This document shows positions 12,245 through 35,070 of a stretch of DNA of 64,000 nt, one piece after another (positions within the stretch are counted from its first letter, which is position 1; each line of letters starts with the position of its first letter). Origin of the DNA: a virus; IMG/VR virus record IMGVR_UViG_3300013099_000017, positions 64,001 through 128,000 of that record, one strand, 5' to 3'. The translations under genes and the position numbers were made by a program. The notes under the pieces are model-generated. The model was given only the letters and a program-made list of their open reading frames with translations. It was not told the DNA's origin and searched no databases.

Positions 12245-13284
12245 TGTTTAAATTTAAAAAATATGATAAAATTACTAATAGTTATGATGGTAAACATGTT
12301 CGTGCAGTAAAAATGGCTATGCTTGAACAAAACATAGAAGATGTGTGGATTGTTACTGAAAAAATTCATGGTGCTAATTTTGCATGTTATGTAAAGCCCA
12401 ATGAAGATTATATGGATGATACTCCATATTCAATTCAATATGCTTCACGTAATAACTTGTTAAGTGAATCTGAATCCGATGCTTTTTATAATTTCCAGTC
12501 TATTAAAGCAGACGTTAGTGAAAAAGTAAAAGAACTTTATAAAAATATATATGATGGTGATACTGCTGATGTTGATGAAATTATTGTTTATGGTGAATTA
12601 TTTGGTGGTTCATATGATCATCCTGATGTTGAACGTGTAAATCAATCACGGGTACAAAAAGGTGTCATGTATTGTCCGGATTTACATTTCAAGGCGTTTG
12701 ATATTTTTATACGTTATAATGATGGTGATGAAATGTATATGAATCCTGCGTTTTTTAATAAAATTTGTTTTGATGTGGGTGTTGATTATATTCCTGCAAA
12801 ATTGATTGGGACGTTGGATGAATGTTTATCTTATCAAAATGATTTTAATTCTTTGATTTATGTTGATTATGATTTACCTGATGTTGGTGAAAATACATGT
12901 GAGGGTGTTGTCATTAAACCCATATATCCATTTTATGACAATCGTGGCAATCGTGCTATTTTCAAGAACAAAAATGATAAATTCAAAGAAGTTGCAGGCG
13001 AACGTAAAAATAAAGTTACACAACCAATTGAATTATCGGATAAAGATAAAGAACATTTTGAATTGGTTGAACGTTATACCACAATGAATCGTTTGAATAA
13101 TCTTGAATCTAAAATTGGTGAACTTGAAGAAGCTAAACAAATTGGTGAATTCATGAAAGGTATGTGTGTTGATGTTAATGAAGATATCAAATTTGAACTG
13201 GATGTTTTATTAACTAAACGTGCCAAAGGTCATTTAATTAAAATGGTCAAAACTTTAATTATGGAAAAGTTATACAACACTTGA
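12244..13284 (+). CDS. rnlB: RNA ligase 2 (Rnl2 family)
   Basis: Motif I TEKIHGANF, YGELFGG, FKAFDI, EGVVIKP, FKNKNDKFKE. Confidence 0.93.
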   Translation: MFKFKKYDKITNSYDGKHVRAVKMAMLEQNIEDVWIVTEKIHGANFACYVKPNEDYMDDTPYSIQYASRNNLLSESESDAFYNFQSIKADVSEKVKELYKNIYDGDTADVDEIIVYGELFGGSYDHPDVERVNQSRVQKGVMYCPDLHFKAFDIFIRYNDGDEMYMNPAFFNKICFDVGVDYIPAKLIGTLDECLSYQNDFNSLIYVDYDLPDVGENTCEGVVIKPIYPFYDNRGNRAIFKNKNDKFKEVAGERKNKVTQPIELSDKDKEHFELVERYTTMNRLNNLESKIGELEEAKQIGEFMKGMCVDVNEDIKFELDVLLTKRAKGHLIKMVKTLIMEKLYNT

Positions 13285-13322
13285 TCTAGATCAATGTAAG
13301 TTGGTATAACTTATGAGATACT
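13281..13322 (+). promoter_or_regulatory. FNR-box promoter, copy A
   Basis: TTGAT-CTAG-ATCAA, 22 nt, then TGA-GATACT extended -10. Confidence 0.65.
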
Positions 13323-13328
13323 AAATTT

Positions 13329-13395
13329 GTCGTTAAAACATTTAGACATTTAGGCATTTTGTGTCAGGGGGGATTTACAGCTCCCCTTCTTTTTT
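13329..13395 (+). ncRNA. Candidate short RNA or attenuated leader
   Basis: No ORF between the promoter and a terminator-like hairpin; about 67 nt. Confidence 0.3.
13367..13395 (+). terminator. Rho-independent terminator-like hairpin
   Basis: GGGGGGA-TTTACAGC-TCCCCTT followed by CTTTTTT. Confidence 0.65.
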
Positions 13396-13413
13396 CTTTA
13401 AGGAATATATATA

Positions 13414-15414
13414 ATGAATAACGTATTACAATTAACTAATGCAGTCAACTTATTTAAAAACTCCAAACAAACACCAGAAGATTATACAAACTTCATCATG
13501 GTGGTTCAGGGTGTTACCCGTCAAGGTAGTGGATTGATGTGGTCACAAATAAACAAAATATTACTTGAAACATTACAACCCGAAAACACATGGTTGCGTA
13601 TATTTCCTACATATGAAGATTATATGTATGTTGTTGATCAACAATTGGAATCTACATATGGATGTGGTCATGTAGATTTAGATGATTATAACTGGATGGA
13701 TGCATATAATGATGAAGTTGTGCCAAGTGATGTTGTTCAAGAATTCAATCGTTATCATGGTATATTATGAAACTTAATAACATAGTAAATCGGCTTTATG
13801 CATTATCTCAGGCATTTAATTTAGTTGGTAATGAAGTTGTTGCTAAAAAATTAAATGAATGTTGTGAAATTATGGATGATGAAATTCAATCAATTGAATC
13901 TGAATTTGAAGATTATGAAATTACAATTGCCGAGTTAGAAACACCAAAATGGTCTGGAGTAAAACCTACTGAATCCGGTTATTATTTATGGAAAGAATTA
14001 AATAGACCATCTTGTAATATGAATAGACGGATTGCCAAAATTAAAAAAAGTGGTATGGGTTCCGATTTGTTTGTTAGTTTTGAAGAACCTCAATCTGGTT
14101 TAGAAGAATATACAAAATTGTCATTGATTGCAGATCGAGATTGGCTGAAAGTTGGAGAATTGTAATGGCAGGTATTGAAAAAGTATGTGAATATTCAGGG
14201 GATTATGATGGTCATAATATGTATGAATATAAACGTAATCGTATTCAAGTTAATCCAGAATACAGAAAATTATTTAAAGGATTAAAATTTAAATTTTTCA
14301 GATTTTTACCCAATTATGATTTGTCGAATTGGAGAAATAATCCAATGACTGATTATTGTTTATATGTACCTGATTTAAAAGGTCAGGTGGATGGTTTTTA
14401 TTACAATTGGACATATAATGAGTTGGGGATTGTTAGGCGTAAATTACAACGTTTAATGGGTGTCAATAAGTTAAATGAAATTCGTATTCCATTAGCAATG
14501 AATGAAGTGTGGGATTATTGTCACAAAACATCTTTACCTTTTGATGATTTCATGTTAAGATGTGAAACATACTCAAACGATCAATGGTTAGAAATTATTC
14601 GTTTGGCTGAATATGATAAAGTTTTTGGGAAATAAAAATGAAAATTGTTACAGTAACCGATAATTATGATCAAACACATAAAGATGTTTTATATCTTGAA
14701 ACCTTAGATGATTTGGATGAATTTGCAGAACTTAGTAATTCAGAAAATGAAGAAGAAATAAAATTGGCATTAAAAACTGATGTTAAGGAAGATAGATGGG
14801 ATCATTTATTTTCACACACACTTGGTTGTATGGCAACTTCTGTCGGTTTATCAAAAATTACAGGAGCAAATTCGATTATTGGTAGTGGTATTCTATTGGA
14901 ACAGAAACTCAATAGATTCCGTTCTTTACTTGAAAATGGTACTGCCATTATTGTTAATAAACATGGTGGATATTTTCCATGTTATGACTTCATGGATATA
15001 AATATTATCAAGTCTGATGAATATGTTTTGGATAAAACTCAATGGATTAAAATTAAAGATGATACCAAAATAATCAATCTTGAAAATGATATGGTTTTGG
15101 AACAACATTCAATGACTTATATGAGAGCATTGGATAAAAATTATTCATCTATCAGACGGTTGAAAAAATTCAATAAACAGGAATTGACTGAAATTTTTAA
15201 AGCGTTTAAATCCAAAGGTGGTGAAATTGCATATATTTACACCACTGGAATTGATGTTGATCAAATGTATGATTATACAGAAGCATTGATTGATGCAGGT
15301 ATTGAAGATATTCGGTTTGAGTTTAATTCTGGAATTGATGATAAGATTAAACAATTTTTGAATGATTTTAAAGATAAAAAAATAACATTTACTATAATAA
15401 ATGAGGTTCGGTAA
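13414..15414 (+). other. Four hypothetical ORFs (13414-13770, 13767-14165, 14165-14635, 14638-15414)
   Basis: Coupled ORFs; no motifs recognised. Confidence 0.65.
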
Positions 15415-15416
15415 AA

Positions 15417-15812
15417 ATGGCAGGAAATTTAATTTTAATTCGGGGATTACCTGGATCTGGTAAAACAACAATGGCAAAAGAATTGCTGAAAGTTTTGGAT
15501 GCTGTACATGTTGAAGCTGATATGTATTTTATAAATGCCAATGATGGTAATTATAATTTTAATCCAAAATGTTTACATCAAGCTCATTCATGGTGTCGAG
15601 CTATTGCTAGTGAGGGGTTATCTTTAGGTCGTAATATTATTGTTTCTAATACATTTACAACCCAAAAAGAAATGAAACCATATCTTAATATGGATTATGA
15701 TTCTATTGCTATCTTTGAAGCAAAAGGTAAGTATAAATCAATTCATAATGTTCCAAAAGAAACTATCAAAAAAATGAAAGATCGTTGGGTCGATTTATAT
15801 GAAAGTGATTAG
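15417..15812 (+). CDS. P-loop kinase (AAA_33 / polynucleotide-kinase-like)
   Basis: RGLPGSGKTT Walker A, EADMYF, VIVSNTF-like motif, SIHNVP. Confidence 0.85.
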   Translation: MAGNLILIRGLPGSGKTTMAKELLKVLDAVHVEADMYFINANDGNYNFNPKCLHQAHSWCRAIASEGLSLGRNIIVSNTFTTQKEMKPYLNMDYDSIAIFEAKGKYKSIHNVPKETIKKMKDRWVDLYESD

Positions 15813-16223
15813 TTTTATTATTCTGTTGTGTTTGTTTGGTGAAGTTCAATCAAATCCTTTTATTGTTAGTGATGTTGGTCAATACCATAAAACAAATACA
15901 ATGGTTAATTATAATGTAAAACGTGGGATATTAGTTGTCAATAATATTGATGTTCTTTCACAGTATTATGTGAGTGGCAAATTTAAATTAATAACAGATA
16001 TACCTGCAATTGTATTTGAATTGGTTGAATATAATTATGTTCATGAATTTGAAAACCCTGAGTGGCAGGATAAACATTATTCGTTTTTTGATGGAAAAAT
16101 TTTAACTATCGAATATTTAACTATTGATGATGATTCAAATATTTGGGATGAACATTGGAATGTTGAACTTAAACATTTGGGTGGCAATATATTTGAATTG
16201 ATTAATTTAAATAAAGTAAAATA

Positions 16224-16269
16224 ATACCCACAATGGGATATATATTATTTATTATAATTGTTATATAAT
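16224..16269 (+). promoter_or_regulatory. Palindrome-class promoter cassette, copy 6 (site inverted)
   Basis: ATACCC-ACAATG-GGATAT; TATAAT at 16264. Confidence 0.8.
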
Positions 16270-16482
16270 AACACAAATGGAGAATTATTATGCCACAACT
16301 TAAAGTATGTTTTCCACATACAAAATCATGTTATACAGATGCTTGTATTATAATTGACACATATCACAATGATAGTGAGGATGATATAATCAAACGAGCC
16401 AAAGAAAAAATTCAAAATGAAACTAAATTATGTTTTAGTGAATTTGATGGTTATCGTTCTATTCCTACTACAATAAAGAAAG

Positions 16483-16490
16483 TATAAATA
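16483..16490 (+). promoter_or_regulatory. T4-type late promoter
   Basis: TATAAATA upstream of the small membrane ORF at 16516. Confidence 0.5.
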
Positions 16491-17924
16491 GCCTATTAAA
16501 TTATAGGAAAACATAATGTCAAAAGCAACACAAACGATAATTCATTGGGGATTAATTGGGGTTTTAGTATTTTCAACTTACACATTTATTCAATTATATA
16601 ATATAATTGAAAATGATTTACAATATACCACTATTGATGGTGTTAAACATTTAAAGGATATTGATATATGATGGAAAACTTTGAAAAATATGCTATTAAT
16701 ACAGTTATTGTTATTGCGTTAATTACAACAATAGTTTCTTTCGTTTATGGTTTTTGGTATATGAAACGAAGCATTAATGCTTGGTTATATTATGATGGTG
16801 TAACTACTGAGCAAGTTTGTGAAATGGTAAAGCCTGAATACATCAAAGATGGATATTGTAAATGAAATTCAGTGAAAGTTATGTAGGGCAACCAGTTTTT
16901 ATAAAAAACGATACATCTAAATTTGGTTATATTAAGAAATTATCATTTATTGAATATGATGATTCTGATTCTAATATAAATACCATTAATAATATTTATG
17001 TTATAGTTGATCGTGGTGAAACATCAATTGAATATGATATTAAAGAATTAACCCCAGCAAAAGGAAATATGTAATGTATAGAAATTATTTGTATAAATGT
17101 CCAATTTGTAGTCATGAGCAGAATTATTCAGTTGATCGAGTGAATGAACGTTGCTACTGTCAAAAATGTGAAAAAGATGGTAAAGCTGTTTTAATGGATC
17201 AAATTAAAGTAAATAAAGATGTCAAGGTTGAACTATTGATTGAAGATGATTGTAGATGATTGTAGTATTGTCGTTAATAATTAATTCTATTATGGCAGTA
17301 TTTGCTTTATATATGTTATGGACAGGATTAACGTTATTTAAAATGACTGATGAAGAATATTCAAGACATAGGCAATTATTATTACATCCGGAAGAAGATC
17401 ACACAGGCGATACCACAACATCAATTCTTATGGATAAAGATGGAAATGTTATAAGACGGGTACGATGTTCTCTTGGTGCAACAAAAAGATTATTACACAA
17501 AGTATGGAATAGATAATGGTAGACAAACAGAAAGATTTAGTGTATAAAGTATTAATTCATCTTCATGATAAACTTAAACTCAATAAAAAATCTGAGGTAG
17601 TTTTTAAAGAATATATGGATTTTTATAAACAGGAAGAACCTGTAAATGAAAATGATCCAGAAATAATGTATGAAAATTATAAATCATGGTGAAATATTAT
17701 GGAATATTCAAAAAATATTGATTGGGGTGTTAAAATTAATACCGATGGTGAAATATCCATTGGTGCTATTATTGATGGTTATATGCAATATCGGGTTTTT
17801 ACAATTACAGATTTAGAATTCTTTTTAGAAAAAGCAAAAGATCATAAAATGGATTTTGATGATCTTGTTTGTGCATACACTAGAGGTGGGATGTCATTAA
17901 CTGATGCCCTTAAAAAAATTAATC

Positions 17925-18317
17925 ATGGATGAAATTCATTTAAGAAAAAAAGATTTCAAACTTGAATGGTTTAGCGGTACTGGTGCTGGTGGTCAACATA
18001 GAAATAAACATCAAAATTGTTGCAGAATAACTCATATTGAAAGTGGGTTAAAAGCACAAGGTACGGATCATAAATCAAGGGTATCAAATCAAAATGATGC
18101 TTTCATGAAATTAGCTAAAATGGTGATATCATTTTACCATGCAGATAAAATGAAAACACGCATAACAAGATCTGAAACCATTAGAAATTATCATGCTGTT
18201 AGAAATGAAGTTCATGATAAAGCAAGTGGACTAAAACAATCATATAAAGATGTGGTTGAAAATGGAAATTTAGGTAAAATGATTAAAGCCCGAATGGAGG
18301 CAACACATAATGAATAA
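17925..18317 (+). CDS. Stand-alone class I release-factor GGQ-domain protein (ArfB/YaeJ/PrfH-like)
   Basis: GTGAGGQHRNK...CRITHIESG...SR..NQ..A; basic tail IRNYH; lacks the stop-codon-reading domain. Confidence 0.88.
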   Translation: MDEIHLRKKDFKLEWFSGTGAGGQHRNKHQNCCRITHIESGLKAQGTDHKSRVSNQNDAFMKLAKMVISFYHADKMKTRITRSETIRNYHAVRNEVHDKASGLKQSYKDVVENGNLGKMIKARMEATHNE

Positions 18318-18512
18318 TAATACACATTTAACTTTATTGGAATTGAAACAGGAAATAGAACAACTTGATTATATTTTAAATCGAAATGATGTGGTGGATA
18401 TTATAACCACATATATTGACCGTGAAAAACCAATATCAATTGATGAATATAAACGTGACATGGGTTTAAGTTATGCCAATGATTTAGATTTTACCCAAAT
18501 GGGGAATGGTTA

Positions 18513-18695
18513 ATGAAAGTTTATGATTACAAATGTTTAGATAAAGAATGTGGGATCGTAGATGAACGTTTTGTCAAAGATCCAGATGATTTTCAATTTT
18601 GTCAAATATGTGGTTGTGAAATGGAAAAAATGCTATCCGCCCCAGCAATGGTCAAAGGCAATTTTTATAATGATAAGTGTGGTTCTAAAAAATGA
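18513..18695 (+). CDS. Second FmdB-like zinc-ribbon protein
   Basis: YDYKC...CG...CQICG.EM.KM.SAP. Confidence 0.75.
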   Translation: MKVYDYKCLDKECGIVDERFVKDPDDFQFCQICGCEMEKMLSAPAMVKGNFYNDKCGSKK

Positions 18696-18831
18696 AAATT
18701 TTATATTTTTTTGGTAATATCTTATATGTTCTATTACTACCATATTGGTTATACATGTCTAAATTTCATTGGAAGAAAAATAGTTTATTTATATTAGCAC
18801 AATATAAAATGGTTTTAACGGGTAAACTTAC

Positions 18832-19416
18832 ATGAGTTCTACAAATAGAAATGCTGTAAGAAATAAAAACGATTATTATATTACACCAATAAATCAAATT
18901 GAATTATTTTGGGAACATTTTACTAAACATAATTATATTAATTTATATGATTCTGTTCTTGATCCTTCTGCTGGTGGTGATCCGGAACATCCTATTATGC
19001 CTTATCCAAGTGTACTACAATCTCATTTCAATCATCCAATAAAAACGATTGATATTCGGGAAGATAGTATTGCTGAAATCAAGGGAAATTATTTAGACTT
19101 GACAATGGATAAAAAGTATAATATAATCGTTGCTAATCCACCATTTAATTTGGCAATAGATTTTATTAAAAAAGCATTAAATGATGTTGCTATTGATGGA
19201 TATGTAATTATGCTTCTGCGTTTAAATTTCTTTGGTAGTGAAAAGCGTTATAACTTTTTAAAAGATAATATGCCCGAAGAATGTTATGTCCATTCTAAAA
19301 GAATGGGGTTTATTCCAGAACAACCAAATAAAACAGATAGTATTGAATATGCTCATTTTGTTTGGAGAAATAGACACAATAGGGATTATTCAACTAATTT
19401 AAGGATTATAAGATGA
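18832..19416 (+). CDS. DNA amino-methyltransferase (probably N6-adenine)
   Basis: DYYITP, LDPSAG.G, ANPPF catalytic motif, MLLRLNF. Confidence 0.85.
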   Translation: MSSTNRNAVRNKNDYYITPINQIELFWEHFTKHNYINLYDSVLDPSAGGDPEHPIMPYPSVLQSHFNHPIKTIDIREDSIAEIKGNYLDLTMDKKYNIIVANPPFNLAIDFIKKALNDVAIDGYVIMLLRLNFFGSEKRYNFLKDNMPEECYVHSKRMGFIPEQPNKTDSIEYAHFVWRNRHNRDYSTNLRIIR

Positions 19417-19652
19417 TATTAATGGAAGAAATTGGAAAAAATGGGGAACGGTTTACACAAGAAATTTATACTATGTGTAAAATGCACAACATGACACATC
19501 TTGATGCTATTACCTTATTTTGTGAAGAACATGATATGGATGTGCAGGATGTAATTCCTTTAATTGGTTCAACATTAAAAGAACAAATTAGAATGGAAGC
19601 AGAAAAAAGAAGGATGCTTGAAGTTGAACACAATACACCAAGTCTTTTTTAA
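19413..19652 (+). CDS. gp33: Late transcription coactivator gp33
   Basis: F..EI...M..LDAI..FCEE.D.D...V..LI...LKE.I..EA pattern of the gp33 family. Confidence 0.8.
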   Translation: MILMEEIGKNGERFTQEIYTMCKMHNMTHLDAITLFCEEHDMDVQDVIPLIGSTLKEQIRMEAEKRRMLEVEHNTPSLF

Positions 19653-19685
19653 TTATTCGTAAATTTCCAATAGAGGATTAATATA

Positions 19686-20099
19686 ATGTATTCAAATGAT
19701 GATTTAACTGTTGATATTCTATCTATCTATAGAGATAGAATTAATCGAGTTTTAAAACAATTTCCAATTAAATTAGTATCTAACACAACTCATATTATTG
19801 ATAGATTGAAAGATCGTGATTTAAATAATATGGATTTACGAACTGTATTGCAATTATTGTATAGAACGTATTTGCCTGAGTTTATTTATTTGGCAACATT
19901 GGAAGAAACCAAAAGACCATTTAAAATTGAAATTAAAAATGAACACATTATTATTGTGTTAAGTCGTATTGATGAATATAAATGGAAAATCAATACTGTA
20001 CTTGATCCGAAGATTCACAGTAAACACGAAAAAACTGGTAATTATCAAAAATACATTAATACAGATATACCACTTTCGGGAGACATGGTAAAATGGTAA
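19686..20099 (+). CDS. Hypothetical protein with an H..DR...R motif
   Basis: THIIDRLKDR and C-terminal INTV; function not assignable. Confidence 0.6.
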   Translation: MYSNDDLTVDILSIYRDRINRVLKQFPIKLVSNTTHIIDRLKDRDLNNMDLRTVLQLLYRTYLPEFIYLATLEETKRPFKIEIKNEHIIIVLSRIDEYKWKINTVLDPKIHSKHEKTGNYQKYINTDIPLSGDMVKW

Positions 20100-20301
20100 A
20101 AAATTATTATGGCAGAAACACAAGGGTTTATCAAAAAGGGAAAAATCAACACAAACTTCCTATGCCAAAATTAGTAAGAAATGAAGTTGAAAATAATACT
20201 GAATATTTGGAAAACTATTCTTTAAATAACTTACTTAAAATAATGTTATATCTTGTCGTATTTTTTGTTATTATGATAGCAACATTCATGGACTAATGTT
20301 A

Positions 20302-20559
20302 ATGAATCAAACAAAATTATAAAGTTTATTAGAAACCTCTGTCAATATAGCAAGTGGATTTATTGTATCTTTATTTTTATGGTCATTTGTGGTTGCTCCA
20401 TTATGGGGATTAGAAATGAGTACATTTGATAATCTTGGTATTGTTTCAATTTTCACAGTATCAGCAATTGGGCGTGGTTATGTTTGGCGTAGATTCTTTA
20501 ATGCTGGAATACACAAAGCGATACACAAATATGTAAACAAATATGTAAGGAGTTTTTAA
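20302..20559 (+). pseudogene. Small phage membrane protein gene with an in-frame TAA at 20320
   Basis: MNQTKL*SLLETSVNIASGF...RGYVWRRFFN matches a common phage family recalled as starting M.QTK.QS. Confidence 0.6.
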
Positions 20560-24208: not shown

Positions 24209-24209
24209 T

Positions 24210-27010: not shown

Positions 27011-27485
27011 TTGAATTAGATGAACCAAAATATAAACAAGCAATAAAAATGTTATATGATAATGGTATTATGTGTGAAGCTGTACGTGATGAAGAAAATG
27101 ATATAAAATTGGCAGTTGAAGGAGAATTTAATTTTTTTGATTATTATCCTTCAACAGGTAGATGGGTGCAACGATTGAGTCATGAATATTTGAGTACAGC
27201 CAGAGAAGGATTTAGTTTACTAAAATTAATTAATTATATAAAGGATCAATAATGCACGATAAAACACAAAGAGCTATGGATGCTTTGGAAATTAATCAGA
27301 TTGGGTTTGAAGTAAAAAATAATGGTATCCAGTTAATTGTAGAGGGGAATGATGGATTTATTGATTTTTACCCTACTACAGGAAATTGGAAATGTCGAAT
27401 TAATGATTCTGAAACTTATGATTCAGGAACCGGATTTAGTTTGAGAAATTTAATTGATCATATTTTGGGGGATCATCGTGGGTGA
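27007..27485 (+). other. Two small tandem paralogs (27007-27252, 27252-27485)
   Basis: Shared VEG....D(Y/F)YP(S/T)TG.W...GF(S)L..LI. Confidence 0.7.
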
Positions 27486-27724
27486 AATATCCGATAGTTA
27501 TTATTTACCAGTAAAAGAAGATTCCTTTATTACTTATGCTATTGCCAAAGAAGATGTGATGGAAGAATTTAGATATTTAACAAATATCTCTCAATATTCA
27601 CCATCACTCAAACGAGCTAATATATATAAATTAAATGAAGGATTATCTAAATTATTCCAATTAGAAAATCATGTTTTGTTGAAGTTGGAAACTAAGGTAA
27701 GTCGGGTTGACGTGGAGGTCAAAA

Positions 27725-27964
27725 ATGGCTAGAAAAGGTAAAAAACGTAGTATTGCAGTATTTGGTTGTACTCTTGATGATGGTTCATAATTGAATCACA
27801 CAGATTCTGAATTTGTTTCTGTTATTGTAAATCCTGATAAAACTGTAAGTGTAACTGATATTAACAACAATAGTACAATATTATTAGATATTAATGGTGA
27901 TCCGGTTAAATCCGAGAACAAATTAATTAACGATAATATTTTGCCATTTCTTTCAATTCTATAA
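27725..27964 (+). pseudogene. Small ORF with an in-frame TAA at 27788
   Basis: MARKGKKRS...DGS*LNHTDSEF...; frame stays open for about 57 more codons. Confidence 0.4.
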
Positions 27965-28238
27965 TAGAAAGATTATTTTTGGCACGATTGGCTTTAACTG
28001 ATAAAACTTGAATATTGTCTGGTTCATAACCAAGATCACTATCAATTCTATCTATTGAAGGTGAAAATTCATTATAACCCCTTGCATTATAATCAATAAT
28101 ATGGTTTAATAGTGGACACGTTAAAGGTAATGATAAATCATATAAATCGGTTAATGTGAGTGTAAATTTAATATTTCTTTTTTTAGCAGATGCTTTCAAA
28201 TGAGATAATAATTTTTTGTAGTTTAGTGTATGTATCAT
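27927..28238 (-). CDS. HNH-type homing endonuclease (start MIHTLNYKK)
   Basis: CPLL...SPSIDRID...GY..DNIQVLS..ANRAKN; TATAAATA on the - strand at 28250-28257. Confidence 0.8.
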   Translation of the reverse strand: MIHTLNYKKLLSHLKASAKKRNIKFTLTLTDLYDLSLPLTCPLLNHIIDYNARGYNEFSPSIDRIDSDLGYEPDNIQVLSVKANRAKNNLSIIELKEMAKYYR

Positions 28239-28444
28239 AATATTGTAATTATTTATAAGGTGAAATAAAATGAACGATTGTTTTAGATGTAAGCGGAAAC
28301 ACACAACATATTGTAATAGTTGTCGTAAAAATCCAAAATTGAAAGATAATTTCATTGAAAGTGATGAATATCATATTAATAAGTGGAGTTTGGAAGGAAA
28401 AGGTGCTAAGGTAATTGATGTCACTTATATGTAATTATTATTTT

Positions 28445-28452
28445 TATAAATA
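28445..28452 (+). promoter_or_regulatory. T4-type late promoter
   Basis: TATAAATA 27 nt upstream of ATG 28480. Confidence 0.7.
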
Positions 28453-28479
28453 GATAAAATAACTTTATAAGGTCAATTA

Positions 28480-29418
28480 ATGTTAAAATTCAAAAACTAT
28501 CTTGTTGAACAGGATTTATTAAATGAGAAACTATTATTAATTAATAGTGGTAAAAAATATGGACAGGTAGTTTTTCTTGCTGGTGGTGCTGGTTCTGGAA
28601 AGGGGTTTGCTGGAAATAATTTTATGAATATTCAGGATTTTAAAGTTCGGGATGTTGATGAAATGAAAAAAGCATATCTTACACTTAATAAATTGAGACA
28701 CAAATATCCTGAATTAGATGGACTTGATTTAAAAAAACCAGAAGATGTTTTTAAAATGCATGGTTTTATTAAGAAAAAAGGTACAGTTAAATCTACATTA
28801 GATAATATGCTTTCTGTTATTGTAAATCCAAACATTTTACCAAATATCGTATTTGATGTTACATTACAGTATGTTTCTAAAATTGATGATACCGTTCCAT
28901 TATTAATCAAAGCTGGATATAAACCCGAAAATATTCATATTATATGGGTGTTGACTGATTATGAAATTGCATTTAAAGCAAATTTGGAAAGGGATCGTAT
29001 TGTTCCTTATGGTAAAGATGGTACACCAAATATTATATTAGATACTCATGTTGGTGCAAGTAAAACAATGTGGAATATTGTTGGTAAAAATAATATTCCA
29101 AAATCAATTAATGGCGGTATTTATGTTATACTGAATAATCGTGATCAAACTATTGTATTTAAAGAAGGTGATAAAAAAGATTTCAGAACAGCAAAAGATG
29201 ATAAAGATGCACCAGCAAAAATAACAACAAGCCCTAGAAAATATGTTAGTAAAAGTAGTGAGAATTACAAAAAGAAAACTATCGTTGTTAAAGATTTCAC
29301 ATATTTAACATATAAAGAACCTGGGAAGGCTCCCAAAAAAGATAAAGAAATTTATAAACAGTTATTTGGATGGGTTAAAGCTAATATTCCAAAATCAGCA
29401 TTAAAATTCATTAATTGA
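28480..29418 (+). CDS. P-loop kinase (zeta-toxin/AAA_33-like) with an internal-protein-like N-terminus
   Basis: MLKFKNYLVE; FLAGGAGSGKG; DVDE; VFDVT; N..R.R.V. Confidence 0.7.
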   Translation: MLKFKNYLVEQDLLNEKLLLINSGKKYGQVVFLAGGAGSGKGFAGNNFMNIQDFKVRDVDEMKKAYLTLNKLRHKYPELDGLDLKKPEDVFKMHGFIKKKGTVKSTLDNMLSVIVNPNILPNIVFDVTLQYVSKIDDTVPLLIKAGYKPENIHIIWVLTDYEIAFKANLERDRIVPYGKDGTPNIILDTHVGASKTMWNIVGKNNIPKSINGGIYVILNNRDQTIVFKEGDKKDFRTAKDDKDAPAKITTSPRKYVSKSSENYKKKTIVVKDFTYLTYKEPGKAPKKDKEIYKQLFGWVKANIPKSALKFIN

Positions 29419-29424
29419 TGATAT

Positions 29425-29470
29425 ATATCCCATTGTGAGTATATACATTAACATTTAATAATGTGATAAT
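29425..29470 (+). promoter_or_regulatory. Palindrome-class promoter cassette, copy 8
   Basis: ATATCC-CATTGT-GAGTAT; TGT-GATAAT at 29465. Confidence 0.75.
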
Positions 29471-29722
29471 AATCCTGTAGTGAGAGATAGCGTTCCCATT
29501 TAAAGAAAAGGAGTCGATATGAGTTATTCAGTTGTTCATTCCGAAAGATATTTAGTTGATAAAAAAGAAACAGAATATTCTAGTCTGGAAAAAATCAAAG
29601 AACGTTATTCCGTTTATTGGAATTATGTTAAAGATGAAATTTCTGCTCTGAATGTTGGTGATAGTGTTGATGTTCATTATGATGATTATGTTTCTCTGAA
29701 TGTTAAAAAAGTTTCTTAACTC

Positions 29723-29816
29723 TTGATCTAGATCAAGGTAAATATCCTCTATCATTGATATACTATATTTGTGGTGAGGGAATTGTTCCCAAAATAGAAA
29801 AACTTCCAAAAGGAAA
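29723..29816 (+). promoter_or_regulatory. FNR-box promoter, copy B, with conserved leader
   Basis: TTGATCTAGATCAA, 22 nt, TGA-TATACT; leader GGGAA-TTG-TTCCC...CTTCCAAAAGGAAA. Confidence 0.75.
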
Positions 29817-29822
29817 TTCAAA

Positions 29823-30398
29823 ATGAAAGCAACACATAAAGGTACTTGTCAATGTTGTGGTGCAATGCAAAAACTTCCAAATGGCGTATTATCTAATCAT
29901 GGTTATACAGTTGATTGGGGTATGTTCAATGGCACTTGTCAAGGTGCAGGTCATAAGCCTTTTGAAAAATCAACAGATTTAATCGAAAGTTTCATAAATC
30001 AAGCCAAAGCTCAAATCGAAAATTTAAACAATGAAATCAGTGAAGTTTCTAATTCAACTGATGTTAAATCGGTTTGGTATCGTAAATATATTCCTGCAAC
30101 ATACAGCAAACAAGCACATTATGTTTGGGAAAAACGTGGTTTATTATTAGATAAAGTTTATTCTGAAAGATTTACTTCTTGGAAATGGGATAGTTTACCA
30201 ACTGATACCAAAGACGTTAATCGTGGTAAAACAGGTGTTGGTGATCATAAACCAAATCCCGATGATGCAGTTAAATTTGAAAATGAAAAATATACCGCAA
30301 TGTTAAGCAAAAAGGTTCAAGGTATTGAAGGTTATATCCAATGGCAAGAAGAACGTATTTCCGGTTGGACTGAGCAACCTTTACAGGAAATTAAATAA
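29823..30398 (+). CDS. Hypothetical early protein with an N-terminal Zn-binding motif
   Basis: GTCQCCG...HGY...C.G. Confidence 0.75.
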   Translation: MKATHKGTCQCCGAMQKLPNGVLSNHGYTVDWGMFNGTCQGAGHKPFEKSTDLIESFINQAKAQIENLNNEISEVSNSTDVKSVWYRKYIPATYSKQAHYVWEKRGLLLDKVYSERFTSWKWDSLPTDTKDVNRGKTGVGDHKPNPDDAVKFENEKYTAMLSKKVQGIEGYIQWQEERISGWTEQPLQEIK

Positions 30399-31185
30399 TG
30401 TTAAAACCTAGAATTGCTAAACTGAAAAAGGATACTCAATTAAAAATTAAACGATATGTAAATTTTCAAGAACAATATATTGGTGAAGTTGGGGATAAAT
30501 CTCCAACATATTTTTTATTCTTGAAACGCATGGAAAAACAATATCATAAAACCCTATCCACAATAAATAAACTTGGATCAAATTAAATGGATGATACATT
30601 AACAATATCGGAAAAGATAAAAGAAGCTCAATATTATTTTAATACTTATTCTGAAACTGTCCGACTATATGAAGAAATTCATGGAGTCGGTAATTATTCA
30701 CCTAAACTAACTGTATTATACACACTGGAATCATAAAATGGATATTGAAGAAATAAAAAAAGAACACAATTATATGTTGGATAGTTATTCAAAACAACTA
30801 AAAACATATCAAGATGAAAATGGATGTGATGATTATCCTGATTATATGATGTATACAATTAAATTGATAGAATTTTATCGTGGTACTTTGACTATATTAA
30901 ATCGAATTGAAAATGGTGTATTTAAATGAATATACAGAATATCTTGTTTACCGATTACAAATGGAAGAATATTATCGTGGTGTTTGGAACACATTAAATG
31001 AACTTAAACGGGGTGCATAATGAAAAAATATAAATTCTCTGTTATTTATTTCATCTATAATGAAGAAGATGAAATAAAAAAAGTTATTGATGTTATGTAT
31101 GGCTCAGGACATCAATCAGTTGTAGATGAAATCAAAAAACTGGAAAATTTTGTCACTATGGTTTATATTGGAGTAATTGAGTAAT

Positions 31186-31281
31186 ATATCCCATTGTAGG
31201 TATATATTTATCAATATAATTGTGAGATACTATACTTGTGGTGAGGGGATTTCCCCAATTAGATAAACTTCCAAAAGGAAA
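31186..31281 (+). promoter_or_regulatory. Palindrome-class promoter cassette, copy 9, with conserved leader
   Basis: ATATCC-CATTGT-AGGTAT; TGA-GATACT at 31226; GGGGATTTCCCC leader. Confidence 0.8.
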
Positions 31282-31287
31282 TAAATC

Positions 31288-31785
31288 ATGAACTATTTTT
31301 CTGCCGTTTCAACTGTCGAAGAAATCAAAAAACTTTATCGTAAATTGTGTTCTAAATTTCATCCGGATCGTGGTGGTGATTTAGAAATCATGAAAACGGT
31401 AAACGTTCAATATAAAGAATCCCTTGCTGGAAATCATGGTCAAAAATCTACCGATAATTTTGGTAAAGAACATACTTATTACTACAATGAGCATGTAGAA
31501 GATGCATTGATGGAAAAAATTCAGGAACTTTTAGCCCTCAATATGACAGGTGTTGAAGTTGCTTTAATTGGTGTTTGGATTTGGGTGACGGGCGATAATA
31601 CTAAAGATTATCGCACACAATTCAAAAACCTTAAATTACGTTGGCACTCAAAGCGTCAAGCGTGGTACTTTCAAACAAGTAAGAAGCGTACCAAATATAA
31701 GAGAAACTTTTCAATGGATGATATGGCTCATGCTTATGGTTATCAGACATTCAAAAGTGATGATAATAAATTGGCACTTGCCTAA
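31288..31785 (+). CDS. J-domain (DnaJ-like) protein
   Basis: EIKKLYRKL...HPDRGG...M..VN. Confidence 0.88.
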   Translation: MNYFSAVSTVEEIKKLYRKLCSKFHPDRGGDLEIMKTVNVQYKESLAGNHGQKSTDNFGKEHTYYYNEHVEDALMEKIQELLALNMTGVEVALIGVWIWVTGDNTKDYRTQFKNLKLRWHSKRQAWYFQTSKKRTKYKRNFSMDDMAHAYGYQTFKSDDNKLALA

Positions 31786-32098
31786 TGAATATCGTTGATT
31801 TCTTTTTTACTTCTTATGTTGTTATTATCACATCAATTCCGTTTATATTTTATTATGATGATATTAAACGGAAACGGTGGGTTAATGGAAAAGATGATAC
31901 CATAAAATAACTATTATAGGATAATATTATGATCAAATCACAACAAAATGCTCTTGTTGTTCTTTCTGTTATGGGTGAACTTGTTACAGAAAAAATTTCA
32001 AAAATTATTGAACTTGAAGAAGAACTTGCACAAGTAAAAAAAGAATTGGAGCAAGAGCGCAATATGAAAGAATATTTAGTTGCTTTAACTTCGGTAAA

Positions 32099-32144
32099 AT
32101 ACCCATTAAGAGATATATAAATTATTTTTTAAGTATGTAATAAT
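32099..32144 (+). promoter_or_regulatory. Palindrome-class promoter cassette, copy 10 (exact reverse complement of copy 5; overlaps the end of the upstream ORF)
   Basis: ATACCC-ATTAAG-AGATAT; TGT-AATAAT at 32139; CTTCCAAAAGGAAA RBS. Confidence 0.7.
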
Positions 32145-32183
32145 AAAGTCTGAATTGAGATAAACTTCCAAAAGGAAATCAAA

Positions 32184-32603
32184 ATGGCTGAGTCAGCAAA
32201 GTTCAAAAAATACGAAATGGTTTGTAAATCTTCAAAGAAATCTCAAGAACGAAATGACTGTTCCGTAAAAGCTGTATCAATGGCAGGACGGGTTTCATAT
32301 AAAGAAGCTCATAGACGTTGTGCAGAACATGGTAGAATTAATAATAAGGGTATGATGAATAGCCAAATTAATTCTACATTGGAAGATTTAGGATTTGAAT
32401 TGCAACTAATTGAAAACCTTTATCAAAAGAATGGTTCTAAATACACTCCTAAGACTATTGGGAAGCGTTTAAAGGCAGGTTATTACATTGTTTATGTTAA
32501 AGGGCATGTGTTCCCTGTAATCAATGGTACGGTCTTTGATTGGTCTGCTAATAGACAACATAGAATCTACCAAGCATATAAAATTGTAAGGAAGCGTACA
32601 TAA
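32184..32603 (+). CDS. Hypothetical protein with an NDCSVKA motif
   Basis: Cys motif and a later GHV...NG.V.D suggest a papain-like fold; weak inference. Confidence 0.65.
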   Translation: MAESAKFKKYEMVCKSSKKSQERNDCSVKAVSMAGRVSYKEAHRRCAEHGRINNKGMMNSQINSTLEDLGFELQLIENLYQKNGSKYTPKTIGKRLKAGYYIVYVKGHVFPVINGTVFDWSANRQHRIYQAYKIVRKRT

Positions 32604-33052
32604 TGAGTAATGGAATTGAAGGTAATATTAGGGTATTTGAAGTTGATTTATTTAGTGAGGTTCTTTACTTTGTCTTACCAAAACACATGAGTAAGCAAGA
32701 TAAATTAATAATTTATAAGAGTGTTGGAGCCACACGTTCTTATGAAAATCAAAATGGCAATACTGTTTTGGTTGTTAAAAAGTGGCAAAATTAAAAAGGA
32801 AATAAATATTATGACAAAGAAATCATTCCATCCAAAGAAATTATCTGATTATTCAGACATATGTCATTTGCGTGATACATTACATATATTACATGAAATT
32901 GATTGGGAAATTGATTTGATTAATGATAGTTTGCAAAACGATAATCATACGAAAACAACAACATTAAATAGATTGGAACGAAAAGATGAATTGGAAACGG
33001 TTTTGGGAACAGTTTTTAGTTTATTAAAACCATATGGGGAAAAATTCAGATA

Positions 33053-33148
33053 ATATCCCATTGTGGGTATATACATTCATTAACTAATATAAGATAATAT
33101 ATTTGTGGTTGGGGGAAGTCTCCCAAAAGATAAATTTTCAAAAGGAAA
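33053..33148 (+). promoter_or_regulatory. Palindrome-class promoter cassette, copy 11, with conserved leader
   Basis: ATATCC-CATTGT-GGGTAT; GATAAT at 33093. Confidence 0.8.
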
Positions 33149-33153
33149 TAATT

Positions 33154-33465
33154 ATGAATGGTTTATTAGTTTCAATCTATCGTGATGGATTTGGTGATTG
33201 TACAAATGGTGGTGTTTCAGGTCGTGTTAAACAGGCTGTAATCACTGGTGATTTAGTTGATTGTGATGTGTTTGAACCAACTGCTTTACAACCTGAAATG
33301 GTCATTGTGGAGCGTTATATAGGTACTAATAAATACCTTCATGCTGTTCCAAAAGATTTACATGAAAGTGGAAAATGGGTTATGTTTGGTGGTAATTTTC
33401 TTTATAGTTCAGACAGCCGTTTCCCTTCGGATCAACCAATTGCAATCCATGACAGGGTGGAATAA
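33154..33465 (+). CDS. Hypothetical phage protein (DCTNGGVS family)
   Basis: Start behind the cassette RBS; motif recalled from other phages. Confidence 0.7.
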   Translation: MNGLLVSIYRDGFGDCTNGGVSGRVKQAVITGDLVDCDVFEPTALQPEMVIVERYIGTNKYLHAVPKDLHESGKWVMFGGNFLYSSDSRFPSDQPIAIHDRVE

Positions 33466-34989
33466 TGAGAGATCCAAGTTTTTATGGTCATTTAAAGTCA
33501 TAACAACATTTCCAAGTGGAATGAAAAGTTCCACTTGGTTTTATAATTATAGACTTCTTAAAAAATATAAGAAATCAGTTCGTAAATTTGAACCTGATTC
33601 AAAAATTGTAGTATTTCCGTATAGTGAATAGGAAGATTAAATATGTTTGAAGTTGATGGAATAAAAGTATCAAATAAAGATGGTGCATTGATAAAAAGAG
33701 CCATGAAGGAATTTGGAAAACAATTAAGTTCTGGTATAATTACCCATAATGGAAAAGAAAAAAATAAAATTAAATTAATTCAGCAATGTGCAAAAATCAT
33801 TGATAAATTTAATTATGATGCTTTTGGAAACCAAGCATCATATATGGCATCATATAGAATATTTTACAAATACGCAGATAAACCCGATATGGAACCATTA
33901 TATGCAGATATGCGTTCATCATCAAAAGAAGGTGCTGTTGATGAATTTTATATATGGTATTGGGATGGTGAGCGCATTGTTAATAATAAAGAAATAGAAA
34001 TTGTTGGTTTGGGGTAATTAATATGTTTGATTTTTTTTGGAAAATTATTATCTATTGGAAATGATGTGGCATTAACACCAAAACATTATCGGGGTTTAGT
34101 TCTTGGTAAAGTGGTTGGTTTTACCCCAAAACAAGTTATATGCAATACTGGAAATATTGAAGGAATGAAAAAGTTTCTAATCTTAATAACAGAAATGACA
34201 TTTATTTTAATTATTGCCATTATTGAAGCAATTTGGAAAAAGTTTAACAAAAATCTTAGAATAGATATTGAAGGAATTGATTGATGAAATTACAAGCACC
34301 AAAATTGCCACTTAAATATCGTGCCGATTTTATGTTACGATATAAAGAAATATTAGATCAGAAATTATCATTTGAAGGTGCTGAGAATGGTATATTTTAT
34401 TTTAAAGGATTGATACAAATATCCGGTAAAATGTTAGAAGCTGAAATGAATGTTGCCTGTACAGATATGAGTGATTTATATTTGAACCCCATTGAATCAA
34501 TTAAAAATCTATTGGATTTTGAATATATTGATTTATTTATTGATGATGTATATTGTTTAAGGATACAATAATGAAAACTAAATGGAAATCTATTGCTTAT
34601 TGGGATAAAGGGGTAAGTACCGGAAATAGTAAAAACGTATCAGTTGATACACATAGCACCGAAGAAATGGCTCAGGCTGTTGCTGATGCATTATTAATTG
34701 AGGGTTTGGGTGGTGAACGTAAAATTTTCCCAATAAAAACCAGAGTTGAAAAGGTTATTATCTTATGAAAAGAACTATTGTTTCAGAAATTCAACCTGAA
34801 TATGCAGTTTCTTATTATTCAATAAAAAAACATGGTAATAGTGGAGCAGGATTTTATTTACATAAAACAGATGATCCGGATAATGGATATTGTGAATTAG
34901 AATTAGTGGAAATGGGTGCTTCTCCTAAAACTGTTCGTGAGTTAAGGGAAGTTGCAAGTATTGAAGTATTTGGTAAACCCTTGATCTAG
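33465..34989 (+). other. Run of small hypothetical ORFs; one appears frameshifted at T8 (34031-34038)
   Basis: ATG 34023 (MFDFF) joins GKLLSIGNDVA only if the run is T7. Confidence 0.55.
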
Positions 34990-35070
34990 ATCAATGTTAT
35001 TTTATCCAAGTTTGATAAACTATATATGTGGTTGGGGAATGATCCCCAAAAGATAAATTTTCAAAAGGAA
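34981..35070 (+). promoter_or_regulatory. FNR-box promoter, copy C, with conserved leader
   Basis: TTGATCTAGATCAA, ~20 nt, TGA-TAAACT; GGGGA-loop-TCCCC leader. Confidence 0.7.

What the first reader, a model, noticed from the sequence alone, without database searches (positions are those of the whole stretch)
13281..35020. Three phage promoters carry a perfect FNR-consensus box at the activator position: possible oxygen-sensing early regulon
Seen: the identical palindrome TTGATCTAGATCAA occurs at 13281, 29723 and 34981. Each copy sits at a gene boundary and is followed by an extended -10 (TGA-GATACT, TGA-TATACT, TGA-TAAACT) with no TTGACA. The spacer is 22 nt in two copies and about 20 nt in the third. 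Established: FNR/ANR/FixK bind TTGAT-N4-ATCAA, and class II FNR promoters centre the site at -41.5, which is a 22-nt gap to the -10 hexamer. Inference: a lytic T4-like phage may use the host anaerobic regulator to switch specific accessory operons (13414-, 29823-, 35078-) on only under low oxygen. The O2-independent NrdJ-type reductase fits this. Caveat: identical central CTAG bases could simply reflect cassette copying or a phage-encoded binder, and each site contains two GATC (Dam) sites.
Basis: partly seen in the sequence, partly recalled or inferred. Interest (0 to 1): 0.88.

Follow-up and report, generated by a model that had tools for sequence, protein, structure and literature searches.

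The report
FNR-type boxes on phage promoter cassettes
An uncultured T4-like phage from marine sediment carries the exact 14-base docking site of the oxygen-sensing regulator FNR, at the activating position, on six of its roughly thirty interchangeable promoter cassettes; this suggests, but does not prove, that some of its accessory genes respond to the host's oxygen state.

Summary
TTGATCTAGATCAA lies at window 13281, 29723 and 34981. The 144-kb record holds two more exact copies and one 13/14 copy. All six sit at gene boundaries, 21-22 nt upstream of an extended -10 with no -35, so they are centred near -40.5/-41.5. The 14-mer is letter for letter the 'FF site' of the FF-41.5 model promoter, which E. 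coli FNR and Pseudomonas ANR activate (PMC4505428).

The boxes are one module of PeSL-like promoter/leader/RBS cassettes. About 22 sister cassettes share the same core promoter and leader but carry a different palindrome (ATATCCCATTGTGGGTATATA) in that place.

The phage record encodes no CRP/FNR-family protein and no MotA. A host FNR-type regulator is therefore the most likely reader (about 0.5). 'On only under low oxygen' is too strong: promoters B and C lie inside longer transcription units, the -10 elements are strong, the host is unknown and nothing was measured.

New here: the same box at the same spacing recurs in other marine phage lineages. In two of them it is the only copy and precedes 2OG-Fe(II) oxygenase operons.

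This scan found the same feature before in other windows of this genome (e1-5799761, e1-5799763). It is a new variant of a known kind (NtcA sites in cyanophages; PeSLs).

The parts
13281..13294 (+). FNR-type box A (TTGATCTAGATCAA); contains the TGA stop of the upstream Rnl2-like gene
13314..13322 (+). Extended -10 of promoter A (TGaGATACT), 22 nt after the box; box centre about -41.5
13366..13398 (+). Terminator-like hairpin plus T-tract in the leader of promoter A, just before the RBS of ORF 13414
13414..16224 (+). Gene block behind box A: six ORFs, one with a P-loop AAA_33 kinase-like domain, the rest without a known family. It ends at the next main-class box (16221).
29723..29736 (+). FNR-type box B
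29756..29764 (+). Extended -10 of promoter B (TGaTATACT), 22 nt after the box
29778..29816 (+). Leader of cassette B: 5' hairpin GGGAAttgTTCCC (29778-29790) and the conserved RBS block CTTCCAAAAGGAAA (29803-29816). This module is 85% identical to that of a main-class cassette.
29823..31184 (+). Gene block behind box B: a 191-aa Cys/His-rich protein of a widespread phage family (confident AF2 model, no PDB match) and three small ORFs
34981..34994 (+). FNR-type box C; contains the TAG stop of ORF 34765-34989
35013..35021 (+). Extended -10 of promoter C (TGaTAAACT), 21 nt after the box; box centre about -40.5
35032..35071 (+). Leader of cassette C: 5' hairpin (35032-35049) and RBS block (35058-35071)
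35078..37075 (+). Gene block behind box C: seven small ORFs without a known family. In metagenomic relatives, homologues of the first gene (about 68% nt identity) are also preceded by the box.
29425..29445 (+). Main-class palindrome of the sister cassette directly upstream of box B. Other copies in the window include 729, 2224, 4958, 31186, 33053 and 37074.

Best explanation
The 14-mer is a functional binding site for a dimeric CRP/FNR-family regulator with FNR/ANR/FixK-type specificity, most likely supplied by the host. It sits on a minority of the phage's modular promoter cassettes in the place where a class II activator overlaps and replaces the -35 element. When the regulator is active (for a true FNR, when oxygen is scarce), it would bind at about -41.5, recruit host RNA polymerase to the extended -10 promoter, and raise transcription of the small accessory-gene blocks behind each box above the level given by read-through from upstream cassettes. 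Shown here: the sequence, copy number, geometry, modular swap and absence of a phage CRP/FNR gene. Inferred: that a protein binds the box, which protein it is, the direction of the effect, and the oxygen signal.
For: 1. There are five exact copies and one 13/14 copy. All are at gene boundaries, in the same orientation relative to a -10, with 21-22 nt spacing and no -35.
2. Among the six copies in this genome the box is invariant apart from one central base, while the 21-22 nt spacer next to it is almost unalignable. The box also keeps a CTAG although CTAG is depleted genome-wide (observed/expected 0.42).
3. The only two substitutions seen in 12 copies (own genome plus relatives) fall at central positions 6 and 9. 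The TTGAT and ATCAA half-sites never change.
4. The 14-mer equals the FF site of the class II FF-41.5 promoter, which responds to E. coli FNR and to P. putida ANR, PP_3233 and PP_3287 in an O2-dependent way (PMC4505428). It also equals the Shewanella FNR motif tTGATctagATCAa and the S. oneidensis ccoN site (PMC2532739, PMC3078092).
5. FNR-class and main-class cassettes share the same -10, leader and RBS module (mean identity 0.70 within the FNR class, 0.66 between classes; the nearest neighbours of B and C are main-class cassettes). The box is therefore the only class-specific part.
6. The 144 kb holds no HTH_Crp_2, cNMP_binding or MotA_activ match and no E-x-x-S-R recognition helix.
7. Canonical TTGACA-17-TATAAT promoters also occur in this phage, so the host polymerase is of the ordinary sigma-70 type.
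8. The same box at 20-22 nt from TATAAT recurs in other phages: 94 IMG/VR stretches against 8 at a control spacing of 25-27. One is a CheckV-complete 64.9-kb phage with no CRP-family gene, where the single box precedes a 2OG-Fe(II) oxygenase gene. Others are HTVC023P-like phages where the single box precedes an operon annotated as two 2OG-Fe(II) oxygenases plus a ferrochelatase.
Against: The host is unknown, so no FNR-type protein can be shown for it. No transcription start, expression or binding data exist. Extended -10 elements (TGnTATAAT in the relatives) can work without an activator, so the box may only modulate, or may even repress. The sister class has a different, odd-centred palindrome that matches no host factor I could recall. 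That looks like a phage-specific control system, and the FNR-type box could belong to it. In a second, distant T4-like phage (G001) the FNR-type box is on five or six cassettes found in 48.7 kb, which fits a general promoter element better than a conditional one. B and C are internal to longer transcription units. Each box holds two GATC sites and the phage has a Dam-like gene (Pfam PF05869, 25.9 bits, below the cut-off). The metagenomic relatives were retrieved with the exact box as the query, so their exactness is partly by construction. The record is only about 79% complete, so a phage-encoded regulator could lie in the missing part.
Confidence: 0.5

Rival explanations
1. A phage-encoded dimeric DNA-binding protein, not of the CRP/FNR family, reads the box. 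The FNR-type and main-class palindromes would then mark two temporal or regulatory classes of phage promoters, as MotA boxes do in T4, and the identity with the FNR site would be coincidence.
For: Two palindromes occupy the same place on one promoter chassis. The main one matches no host site I could recall and also lies in the spacer of a TTGACA-17-TATATT promoter before the gene at the gp55 position, a typical operator location. A 98-aa ORF with a sub-threshold sigma-70 region 4 match (19.9 bits against 24.1) lies in the cassette behind the 13/14 box. In G001 the box is carried by every cassette found so far. About 21% of the genome is missing.
Against: An unrelated protein would have to have evolved an operator identical at all 14 positions to the optimal FNR site, including its weakly specified centre. 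The only substitutions seen lie in the N4 centre, as FNR-type recognition predicts. The box recurs in unrelated phage lineages, one of them a complete genome with a single copy.
Confidence: 0.25
2. A host CRP/FNR-family paralogue that does not sense oxygen directly reads the box (FixK-, Dnr/Nnr- or NtcA-like; signal nitric oxide, 2-oxoglutarate, a cascade, or none). The regulon would then report another host state.
For: TTGA-N6-TCAA cores are shared by several family members (established knowledge). T4-like cyanophages carry 1-16 NtcA sites each, linked to 2OG-related genes (PMC3037559). In two other phage lineages the box precedes 2OG-Fe(II) oxygenase operons, which use both O2 and 2-oxoglutarate. 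Two TTGACATATGTCAA palindromes in this phage fit the looser FixK-type core.
Against: The full TTGAT/ATCAA half-sites are invariant, and these are what distinguishes FNR/ANR sites. Nothing here identifies the signal.
Confidence: 0.15
3. No regulator is involved. The palindrome is kept by cassette copying or recombination, as a pair of Dam (GATC) sites, or because it supplies stop codons for upstream ORFs.
For: The cassettes are repeated and probably recombine, as PeSLs do (PMC2839356). The box has two GATC sites and a Dam-like gene is present. The box provides the stop codon of the upstream ORF at A and C.
Against: Recent copying would also conserve the adjacent spacer, which has diverged. The spacing to the -10 is fixed at 21-22 nt in every copy and in other lineages. 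As RNA the box folds at only -0.7 kcal/mol. GATC is not unusual genome-wide (observed/expected 0.8), and the 13/14 copy has lost one GATC but kept the half-sites.
Confidence: 0.07

Closest known systems
Class II FNR-dependent promoters, in particular the semi-synthetic FF-41.5 promoter (PMC4505428)
   Same: The FNR box is the identical 14-mer TTGATCTAGATCAA. The site overlaps the -35 region and is centred about 41.5 bp upstream of the start.
   Different: These are natural copies in a lytic-type phage on repeated cassettes, with an extended -10 and centres of -40.5/-41.5 inferred from the -10 only. Dependence on FNR or oxygen is untested and the host is unknown.
NtcA-box promoters of T4-like cyanophages (Sullivan et al. 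2010, PMC3037559)
   Same: [quoted passage not shown] This is read as exploiting a host stress response.
   Different: The box is GTA-N8-TAC and the signal is 2-oxoglutarate/nitrogen, not TTGAT-N4-ATCAA and oxygen. The hosts are cyanobacteria. Those sites are not described as modules of repeated cassettes.
PeSLs, promoter-early stem-loop cassettes of RB49/phi1, T4/PST and KVP40/nt-1 (PMC2839356, PMC4122927)
   Same: Repeats of about 100 bp containing a promoter, a G/C stem-loop and a Shine-Dalgarno sequence, lying in front of small ORFan genes in the plastic regions of T4-like genomes.
   Different: PeSLs have consensus -35 and -10 hexamers, and their stem-loop acts as a terminator. Here there is no -35, a palindromic box sits at -41.5 or -43, the stem-loop lies in the 5' leader without a U-tract (except in cassette A), and there are two box classes.
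T4 MotA/AsiA middle promoters (textbook knowledge, from memory)
   Same: The -35 element is replaced by an activator box while the -10 is kept.
   Different: The MotA box is asymmetric and centred at -30. No MotA domain was found in this phage.
Phage Mu mom promoter, controlled by host OxyR and Dam GATC methylation (from memory, not checked here)
   Same: A phage promoter is read by a host redox-related regulator, with GATC sites inside the binding region.
   Different: OxyR represses there and methylation blocks its binding. The regulator family and geometry are different.

Membership tests
Class II FNR-dependent promoter | Inverted repeat TTGAT-N4-ATCAA | tested here: met
   10 of 10 half-site bases match in all six genomic copies. 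Five copies are identical to the FF site.
Class II FNR-dependent promoter | Site centred near -41.5, overlapping the -35 region | tested here: met
   21-22 nt lie between the box and the -10 hexamer in all copies, which gives -40.5/-41.5 if the hexamer spans -12 to -7. This is relative to a predicted -10 only.
Class II FNR-dependent promoter | Experimentally mapped transcription start consistent with the geometry | not testable with these tools
   No RNA run holds the phage.
Class II FNR-dependent promoter | Poor or absent -35 hexamer | tested here: met
   ATGTAA, AGGTAA and AATGTT at 17-bp spacing, at most 3 of 6 matches to TTGACA. The consensus scan does not call these promoters.
Class II FNR-dependent promoter | Activity depends on FNR (or ANR/FixK) and on low oxygen | not testable with these tools
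   Needs reporter fusions or binding assays.
Class II FNR-dependent promoter | Host encodes a CRP/FNR protein with the E-x-x-S-R recognition helix | tested here: inconclusive
   The host was not identified. Genome-collection scans with the main-class box and with the DNA polymerase found nothing.
PeSL (promoter-early stem-loop) cassette | Repeated intergenic cassette of about 100 bp with promoter, stem-loop and SD before small genes of a T4-like phage | tested here: met
   22 cassettes share the RBS block. Most have the -10 and many the G/C hairpin. T4-like core genes are present.
PeSL (promoter-early stem-loop) cassette | Consensus sigma-70 -35 and -10 hexamers | tested here: not met
   The FNR class has no -35. 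The main class has at best TATACA.
PeSL (promoter-early stem-loop) cassette | Stem-loop acting as terminator for upstream transcription | tested here: inconclusive
   The hairpins lie downstream of the -10 and lack a U-tract in B and C. Only cassette A has a terminator-like hairpin.
PeSL (promoter-early stem-loop) cassette | Mediates gene shuffling between strains | tested here: inconclusive
   The joints seen when contigs of four other samples were laid on the stretch match paralogous cassettes elsewhere in the same genome, so they prove nothing.
Phage-encoded CRP/FNR regulator | Gene with HTH_Crp_2 or cNMP_binding domains, or an E-x-x-S-R helix | tested here: not met
   No match in six frames of the 144 kb. 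The record is about 79% complete.
T4 MotA-dependent middle promoter | MotA activator gene present | tested here: not met
   PF09114 gives no match.

The most novel reading that the evidence does not exclude
Lytic marine phages of several unrelated lineages wire chosen operons to the host's FNR-type oxygen sensor. This T4-like sediment phage does so for six swappable accessory-gene cassettes. HTVC023P-like phages and another lineage (represented by a complete 65-kb genome) do so for their single 2OG-Fe(II) oxygenase operon. Phage gene expression would then track the redox state of the infected cell, possibly matching host defences that FNR switches on in anoxia.
Probability: 0.35. Interest if true: 0.8.

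Novelty: new variant of a known kind. Interest (0 to 1): 0.6.

Why it matters
If a host FNR-type protein reads these boxes, a virulent phage would sense oxygen through its host and adjust part of its accessory (probably host-takeover or counter-defence) programme to it. That is relevant in sediments and oxygen-minimum zones, where hosts switch between oxic and anoxic states. It would extend the cyanophage NtcA and PhoB precedents to redox sensing. It would also fit the recent report that FNR activates CRISPR-Cas in anoxia in Enterobacteriaceae (PMC12669028, abstract seen). The modular design, one core promoter with exchangeable regulator boxes, would show how phages can rewire the regulation of shuffled genes simply by swapping about 20 bp. 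The promoters are short and the box is the standard FF site, so the idea is directly testable in laboratory strains.

Tried and rejected
- Host identification failed. A scan of 185,579 species genomes for the main-class box and a search with the phage DNA polymerase both found nothing.
- No RNA holder was listed among public runs, so starts and expression could not be examined.
- I laid contigs of four other sediment or marine samples on 13000-32900. The same strain is present. The many 'joints' at cassette borders carry spacer letters of paralogous cassettes elsewhere in this genome (for example genome 62207 and 131680), so I reject them as evidence of shuffling. No variant in boxes A or B was among the differences listed, but 846 differences were not shown.
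I could therefore not reach the 207-kb contig that carries an identical copy of the 191-aa gene, which might hold the missing fifth of the genome, nor the contexts of its 45-70% identical homologues.
- 80 IMG/VR loci with distant homologues of the 191-aa gene contain no TTGAT-N4-ATCAA at all. The box therefore does not travel with that gene family.
- IMG/VR scans for the box plus the RBS block found no relative. The 18-mer scan found mostly unrelated phages.
- Function of the regulated genes: Pfam, NCBIfam and PHROGs gave nothing beyond one P-loop kinase-like domain and one DUF2958. A confident AF2 model of the 191-aa protein (pLDDT 89.5) has no PDB match.
- RNA structure for the box itself is rejected (-0.7 kcal/mol). 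The window has no Rfam family and no tRNA.
- I first took the conserved CTAG centre as evidence against FNR. I withdrew this after reading that ctag is the preferred centre of the Shewanella FNR motif and of the FF site.
- Cultured pelagiphage HTVC023P has no FNR-type box. Only its metagenomic relatives do.
- One call was wasted on a 30-base query.

Full report
WHAT IS THERE

The window is bases 64001-128000 of a 144,243-bp IMG/VR virus record with 29% G+C, estimated about 79% complete. It is a T4-like phage:
- Its DNA polymerase is 41% identical to gp43 of T4-like cyanophages.
- It has UvsW, a gp46-like SMC ATPase, RNase H, DNA ligase and both T4-type RNA ligases.
- It has an intein-bearing DnaB-like helicase and an intein-bearing class II reductase NrdJ, with no NrdB or NrdD.

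Public runs that hold it are sediment and marine metagenomes.

THE OBSERVATION

TTGATCTAGATCAA occurs exactly at window 13281, 29723 and 34981. The whole record adds exact copies at genome 48553 and 50563 and a 13/14 copy at 46894. No other intergenic site comes within three mismatches. It is the most repeated perfect palindrome in the genome.

Every copy lies at the end of an ORF. In A and C the box itself supplies the stop codon. Each box is followed after 21-22 nt by an extended -10 (TGn plus GATACT, TATACT, TAAACT, TATAGT or TATAAT), with nothing like TTGACA at -35. If the hexamer spans -12 to -7, the box centre is at -40.5 or -41.5.

THE CONTEXT CHANGES THE PICTURE

The boxes are not isolated. 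Twenty-two intergenic regions share a conserved block, CTTCCAAAAGGAAA, 5-7 nt before the start codon. Most also share the -10 region, and many share a G/C hairpin (GGGGA-loop-TCCCC) in the predicted 5' leader.

In about 22 places a different palindrome, ATATCCCATTGTGGGTATATA, occupies the position of the FNR-type box. It occurs in either orientation, 19 nt from the -10, centred near -43.

The part from the -10 to the start codon is not class-specific. Mean identity is 0.70 among FNR-class cassettes, 0.67 among main-class cassettes and 0.66 between the classes. The closest relatives of leaders B and C are main-class cassettes, at 85% and 79%.

So the phage uses one promoter/leader chassis with two exchangeable upstream boxes. 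This is the PeSL design of T4-like phages (PMC2839356, PMC4122927), with two differences. There is no consensus -35, and the hairpin lies downstream of the -10 rather than acting as an upstream terminator.

Ordinary TTGACA-17-TATAAT promoters and TATAAATA late-type sequences also exist. The host polymerase is therefore of the usual sigma-70 kind, and the boxed promoters are probably activator-dependent classes.

IS THE BOX FUNCTIONAL?

Within this genome the six copies keep 83 of 84 box positions, while the adjacent spacers are nearly unalignable. Recent copying would have preserved both. The box also keeps a CTAG in a genome that avoids CTAG (observed/expected 0.42). As RNA it does not fold (-0.7 kcal/mol).

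A metagenome scan for the exact box followed by the RBS block returned five contigs of related phages. Their flanking genes are 65-80% identical in DNA to this phage. In them the box precedes homologues of the gene behind box C (L092, L093, L095) and of the gene behind the box at genome 50563 (L096), again 21-22 nt from a now perfect TGnTATAAT.

These contigs were found with the exact box, so their exactness is partly by construction. The one copy caught in passing (L093, TTGATCTAAATCAA) is 13/14. In all 12 copies the only two substitutions are at central positions 6 and 9, and the TTGAT and ATCAA half-sites never vary. By contrast, the main-class boxes caught in passing in the same contigs differ from this phage's consensus at 0-4 of 21 positions.

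WHO READS IT?

The 14-mer is exactly the 'FF site'. [quoted passage not shown] It uses the FF-41.5 promoter as a class II FNR-dependent reporter that responds to oxygen through E. coli FNR and through P. putida ANR, PP_3233 and PP_3287.

The motif discovered de novo for FNR in Shewanella genomes is tTGATctagATCAa (PMC2532739). The same 14-mer is a predicted EtrA/FNR site at S. oneidensis ccoN (PMC3078092). The conserved CTAG centre, which I first took as an argument against FNR, is thus the family's preferred centre.

The phage record has no HTH_Crp_2, cNMP_binding or MotA domain in six frames and no E-x-x-S-R helix. The simplest reading is a host FNR-type regulator acting as a class II activator.

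A NEW LINE OF EVIDENCE FROM OTHER PHAGES

Scanning IMG/VR for TTGATC-YR-GATCAA followed after 20-22 nt by TATAAT gave 94 stretches. The same pattern at 25-27 nt gave 8. Many hits are one conserved coding region. After clustering, about six non-coding lineages remain against two or three in the control, so the excess by lineage is modest. Three of these lineages are informative:

(a) G001 is a 48.7-kb fragment (38.5% G+C) of a distant T4-like phage. Its baseplate and tail proteins are 27-38% identical to this one's. It has five cassettes with the box 21-22 nt from TATAAT on both strands, each before a gene. The centre varies (TA, CA/TG) but the half-sites do not. A sixth box-like copy (TTGATTTAGGTCAA) lies much farther from its -10.

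(b) Twenty-four contigs related to pelagiphage HTVC023P have a single box. In the contigs checked it precedes the homologues of gp64-gp67. The GenBank record annotates gp65 and gp66 as 2OG-Fe(II) oxygenase-like proteins and gp67 as a putative ferrochelatase. The cultured phage itself has TTGACA...TATAAT there and no box.

(c) G005, a 64.9-kb genome rated 100% complete, and the related G006 each have one box, directly before a 2OG-FeII_Oxy_3 gene (57 bits). No CRP-family gene was found in either.

A single site in a complete genome, in front of an oxygen-consuming enzyme, is what a host-regulator site would look like. It is hard to read as a general phage promoter element. G001 points the other way: there the box looks like the standard cassette.

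LIMITS OF THE OXYGEN-SWITCH READING

- Promoters B and C lie 300 and 1,900 bp downstream of main-class promoters (29425, 33053) with no terminator-like site between them. The genes are therefore probably transcribed anyway, and the box can only add to that.
- Promoter A is followed by a terminator-like hairpin and T-tract (13366-13398) before its first gene. It may make a short RNA or be attenuated.
- Extended -10 promoters can be activator-independent.
- The roughly 30 genes behind the six boxes have no recognisable link to oxygen. They include one AAA_33 kinase-like domain, one DUF2958, one sub-threshold sigma region-4 match, and a widespread 191-aa Cys/His protein whose confident model matches nothing solved.
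- The phage has no PF13640 oxygenase.
- Each box has two GATC sites. The phage carries a Dam-like gene (below the Pfam cut-off), a C5-cytosine methylase and an N6 methylase, so methylation could affect binding.
- The host remains unknown.

VERDICT

The box is a selected promoter element on a modular cassette. Its sequence and position are those of a class II FNR site. A host CRP/FNR-family reader is the best-supported explanation (about 0.5 for a host FNR-type reader, plus 0.15 for a family member that senses something else). A phage-encoded binder is the main rival (0.25).

The concept has precedents: host CRP-family NtcA sites in T4-like cyanophages (PMC3037559) and PeSL cassettes. My searches found no paper describing FNR-type boxes in lytic phage promoters. 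I therefore class it as a new variant of a known kind.

Earlier agents of this scan reached the same core reading on other windows of this genome. I re-derived it independently and added five things: the literature identity with the FF site, the chassis comparison, the read-through caveat, the ascertainment caveat, and the cross-lineage recurrence with its link to 2OG-Fe(II) oxygenase operons.

Noticed in passing
window 729, 2224, 4958, 11065, 16221, 29425, 31186, 33053, 37074, 41096, 44531 (and 11 more in the genome): The main-class palindrome ATATCCCATTGTGGGTATATA occurs in either orientation, 19 nt before the -10 (centre about -43), on about 22 cassettes. It is odd-centred like phage repressor operators, its right end gives a TATACA -35-like hexamer, and its reader is unknown. 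Relatives show lineage-specific variants such as ATACCCCATTATGGGTATGTA.
   Followed up: partly
genome 24395 (L006:4395) and 134651 (L009:8651): The second repeated perfect palindrome, TTGACATATGTCAA (FixK-type TTGA-N6-TCAA core), is centred about -59.5 and -80.5 upstream of canonical TTGACA promoters, 21 bp apart in phase. One promoter precedes the 160-aa gene at the gp55 position and has a main-class box in its spacer. The other precedes a SegE-like GIY-YIG endonuclease gene.
   Followed up: partly
genome 47339-47635 (L007:7339-7635): A 98-aa ORF has a sub-threshold Sigma70_r4 match (19.9 bits, cut-off 24.1). Its helix VSSTAVRDLYNKALRLLK resembles sigma region 4.2 but lacks most of the -35-contacting residues. 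It is the second gene behind the 13/14 FNR-type box. It could be a stand-alone sigma-4 decoy or a DNA binder.
   Followed up: partly
window 13329-13398: Promoter A is followed by a leader of about 70 nt that ends in a terminator-like hairpin and T-tract just before the RBS of ORF 13414. This could be a short RNA or an attenuator. No Rfam match.
   Followed up: partly
window 47056-49425: A DnaB-like replicative helicase is interrupted by an intein with a LAGLIDADG homing-endonuclease domain.
   Followed up: no
window 62405 onward (L009:405-3746): A class II (B12-dependent) ribonucleotide reductase NrdJ carries an intein. No NrdB, NrdD or 2OG-Fe(II) oxygenase was found in the record.
   Followed up: yes
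window 25422-26354, 18832-19416; L009:4399-5409: Three DNA methyltransferase genes (C5-cytosine, Dam-like below the cut-off, N6 Eco57I-like). Palindromes are strongly avoided: CGCG 0 observed against 8.6 expected, GGCC 0.13, GCGC 0.27, CTAG 0.42, AGCT 0.56.
   Followed up: partly
L007:2648-3730 (genome 42648-43730): A 360-aa protein has the N-terminal domain of dATP/dGTP diphosphohydrolases (PF18909, 103 bits). This family is known from phages with modified purines and hints at a non-standard base in the DNA.
   Followed up: no
L009:16046-17278; L009:10768-14531: A DruA-like (Druantia) protein is encoded by the phage. An NAD salvage pair is also present (NAMPT, and NMNAT fused to Nudix).
   Followed up: no
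G001 = IMGVR_UViG_3300035499_000745 (L183-L185), boxes at 5154, 6495, 14999, 41092, 43318: A distant T4-like phage (38.5% G+C) has repeated cassettes that all carry TTGATC-YR-GATCAA 21-22 nt before a perfect TATAAT, on both strands.
   Followed up: partly
L254, L205, L189 (HTVC023P-like contigs); L192/G005, L212/G006: In these phages the single FNR-type box precedes 2OG-Fe(II) oxygenase operons. Cultured HTVC023P lacks the box at the same place.
   Followed up: partly
window 29823-30398: The 191-aa protein has invariant C9, C12, H26 and C39 and belongs to a family with more than 80 homologues in diverse phages. The AF2 model has pLDDT 89.5 and finds no significant PDB match.
   Followed up: partly
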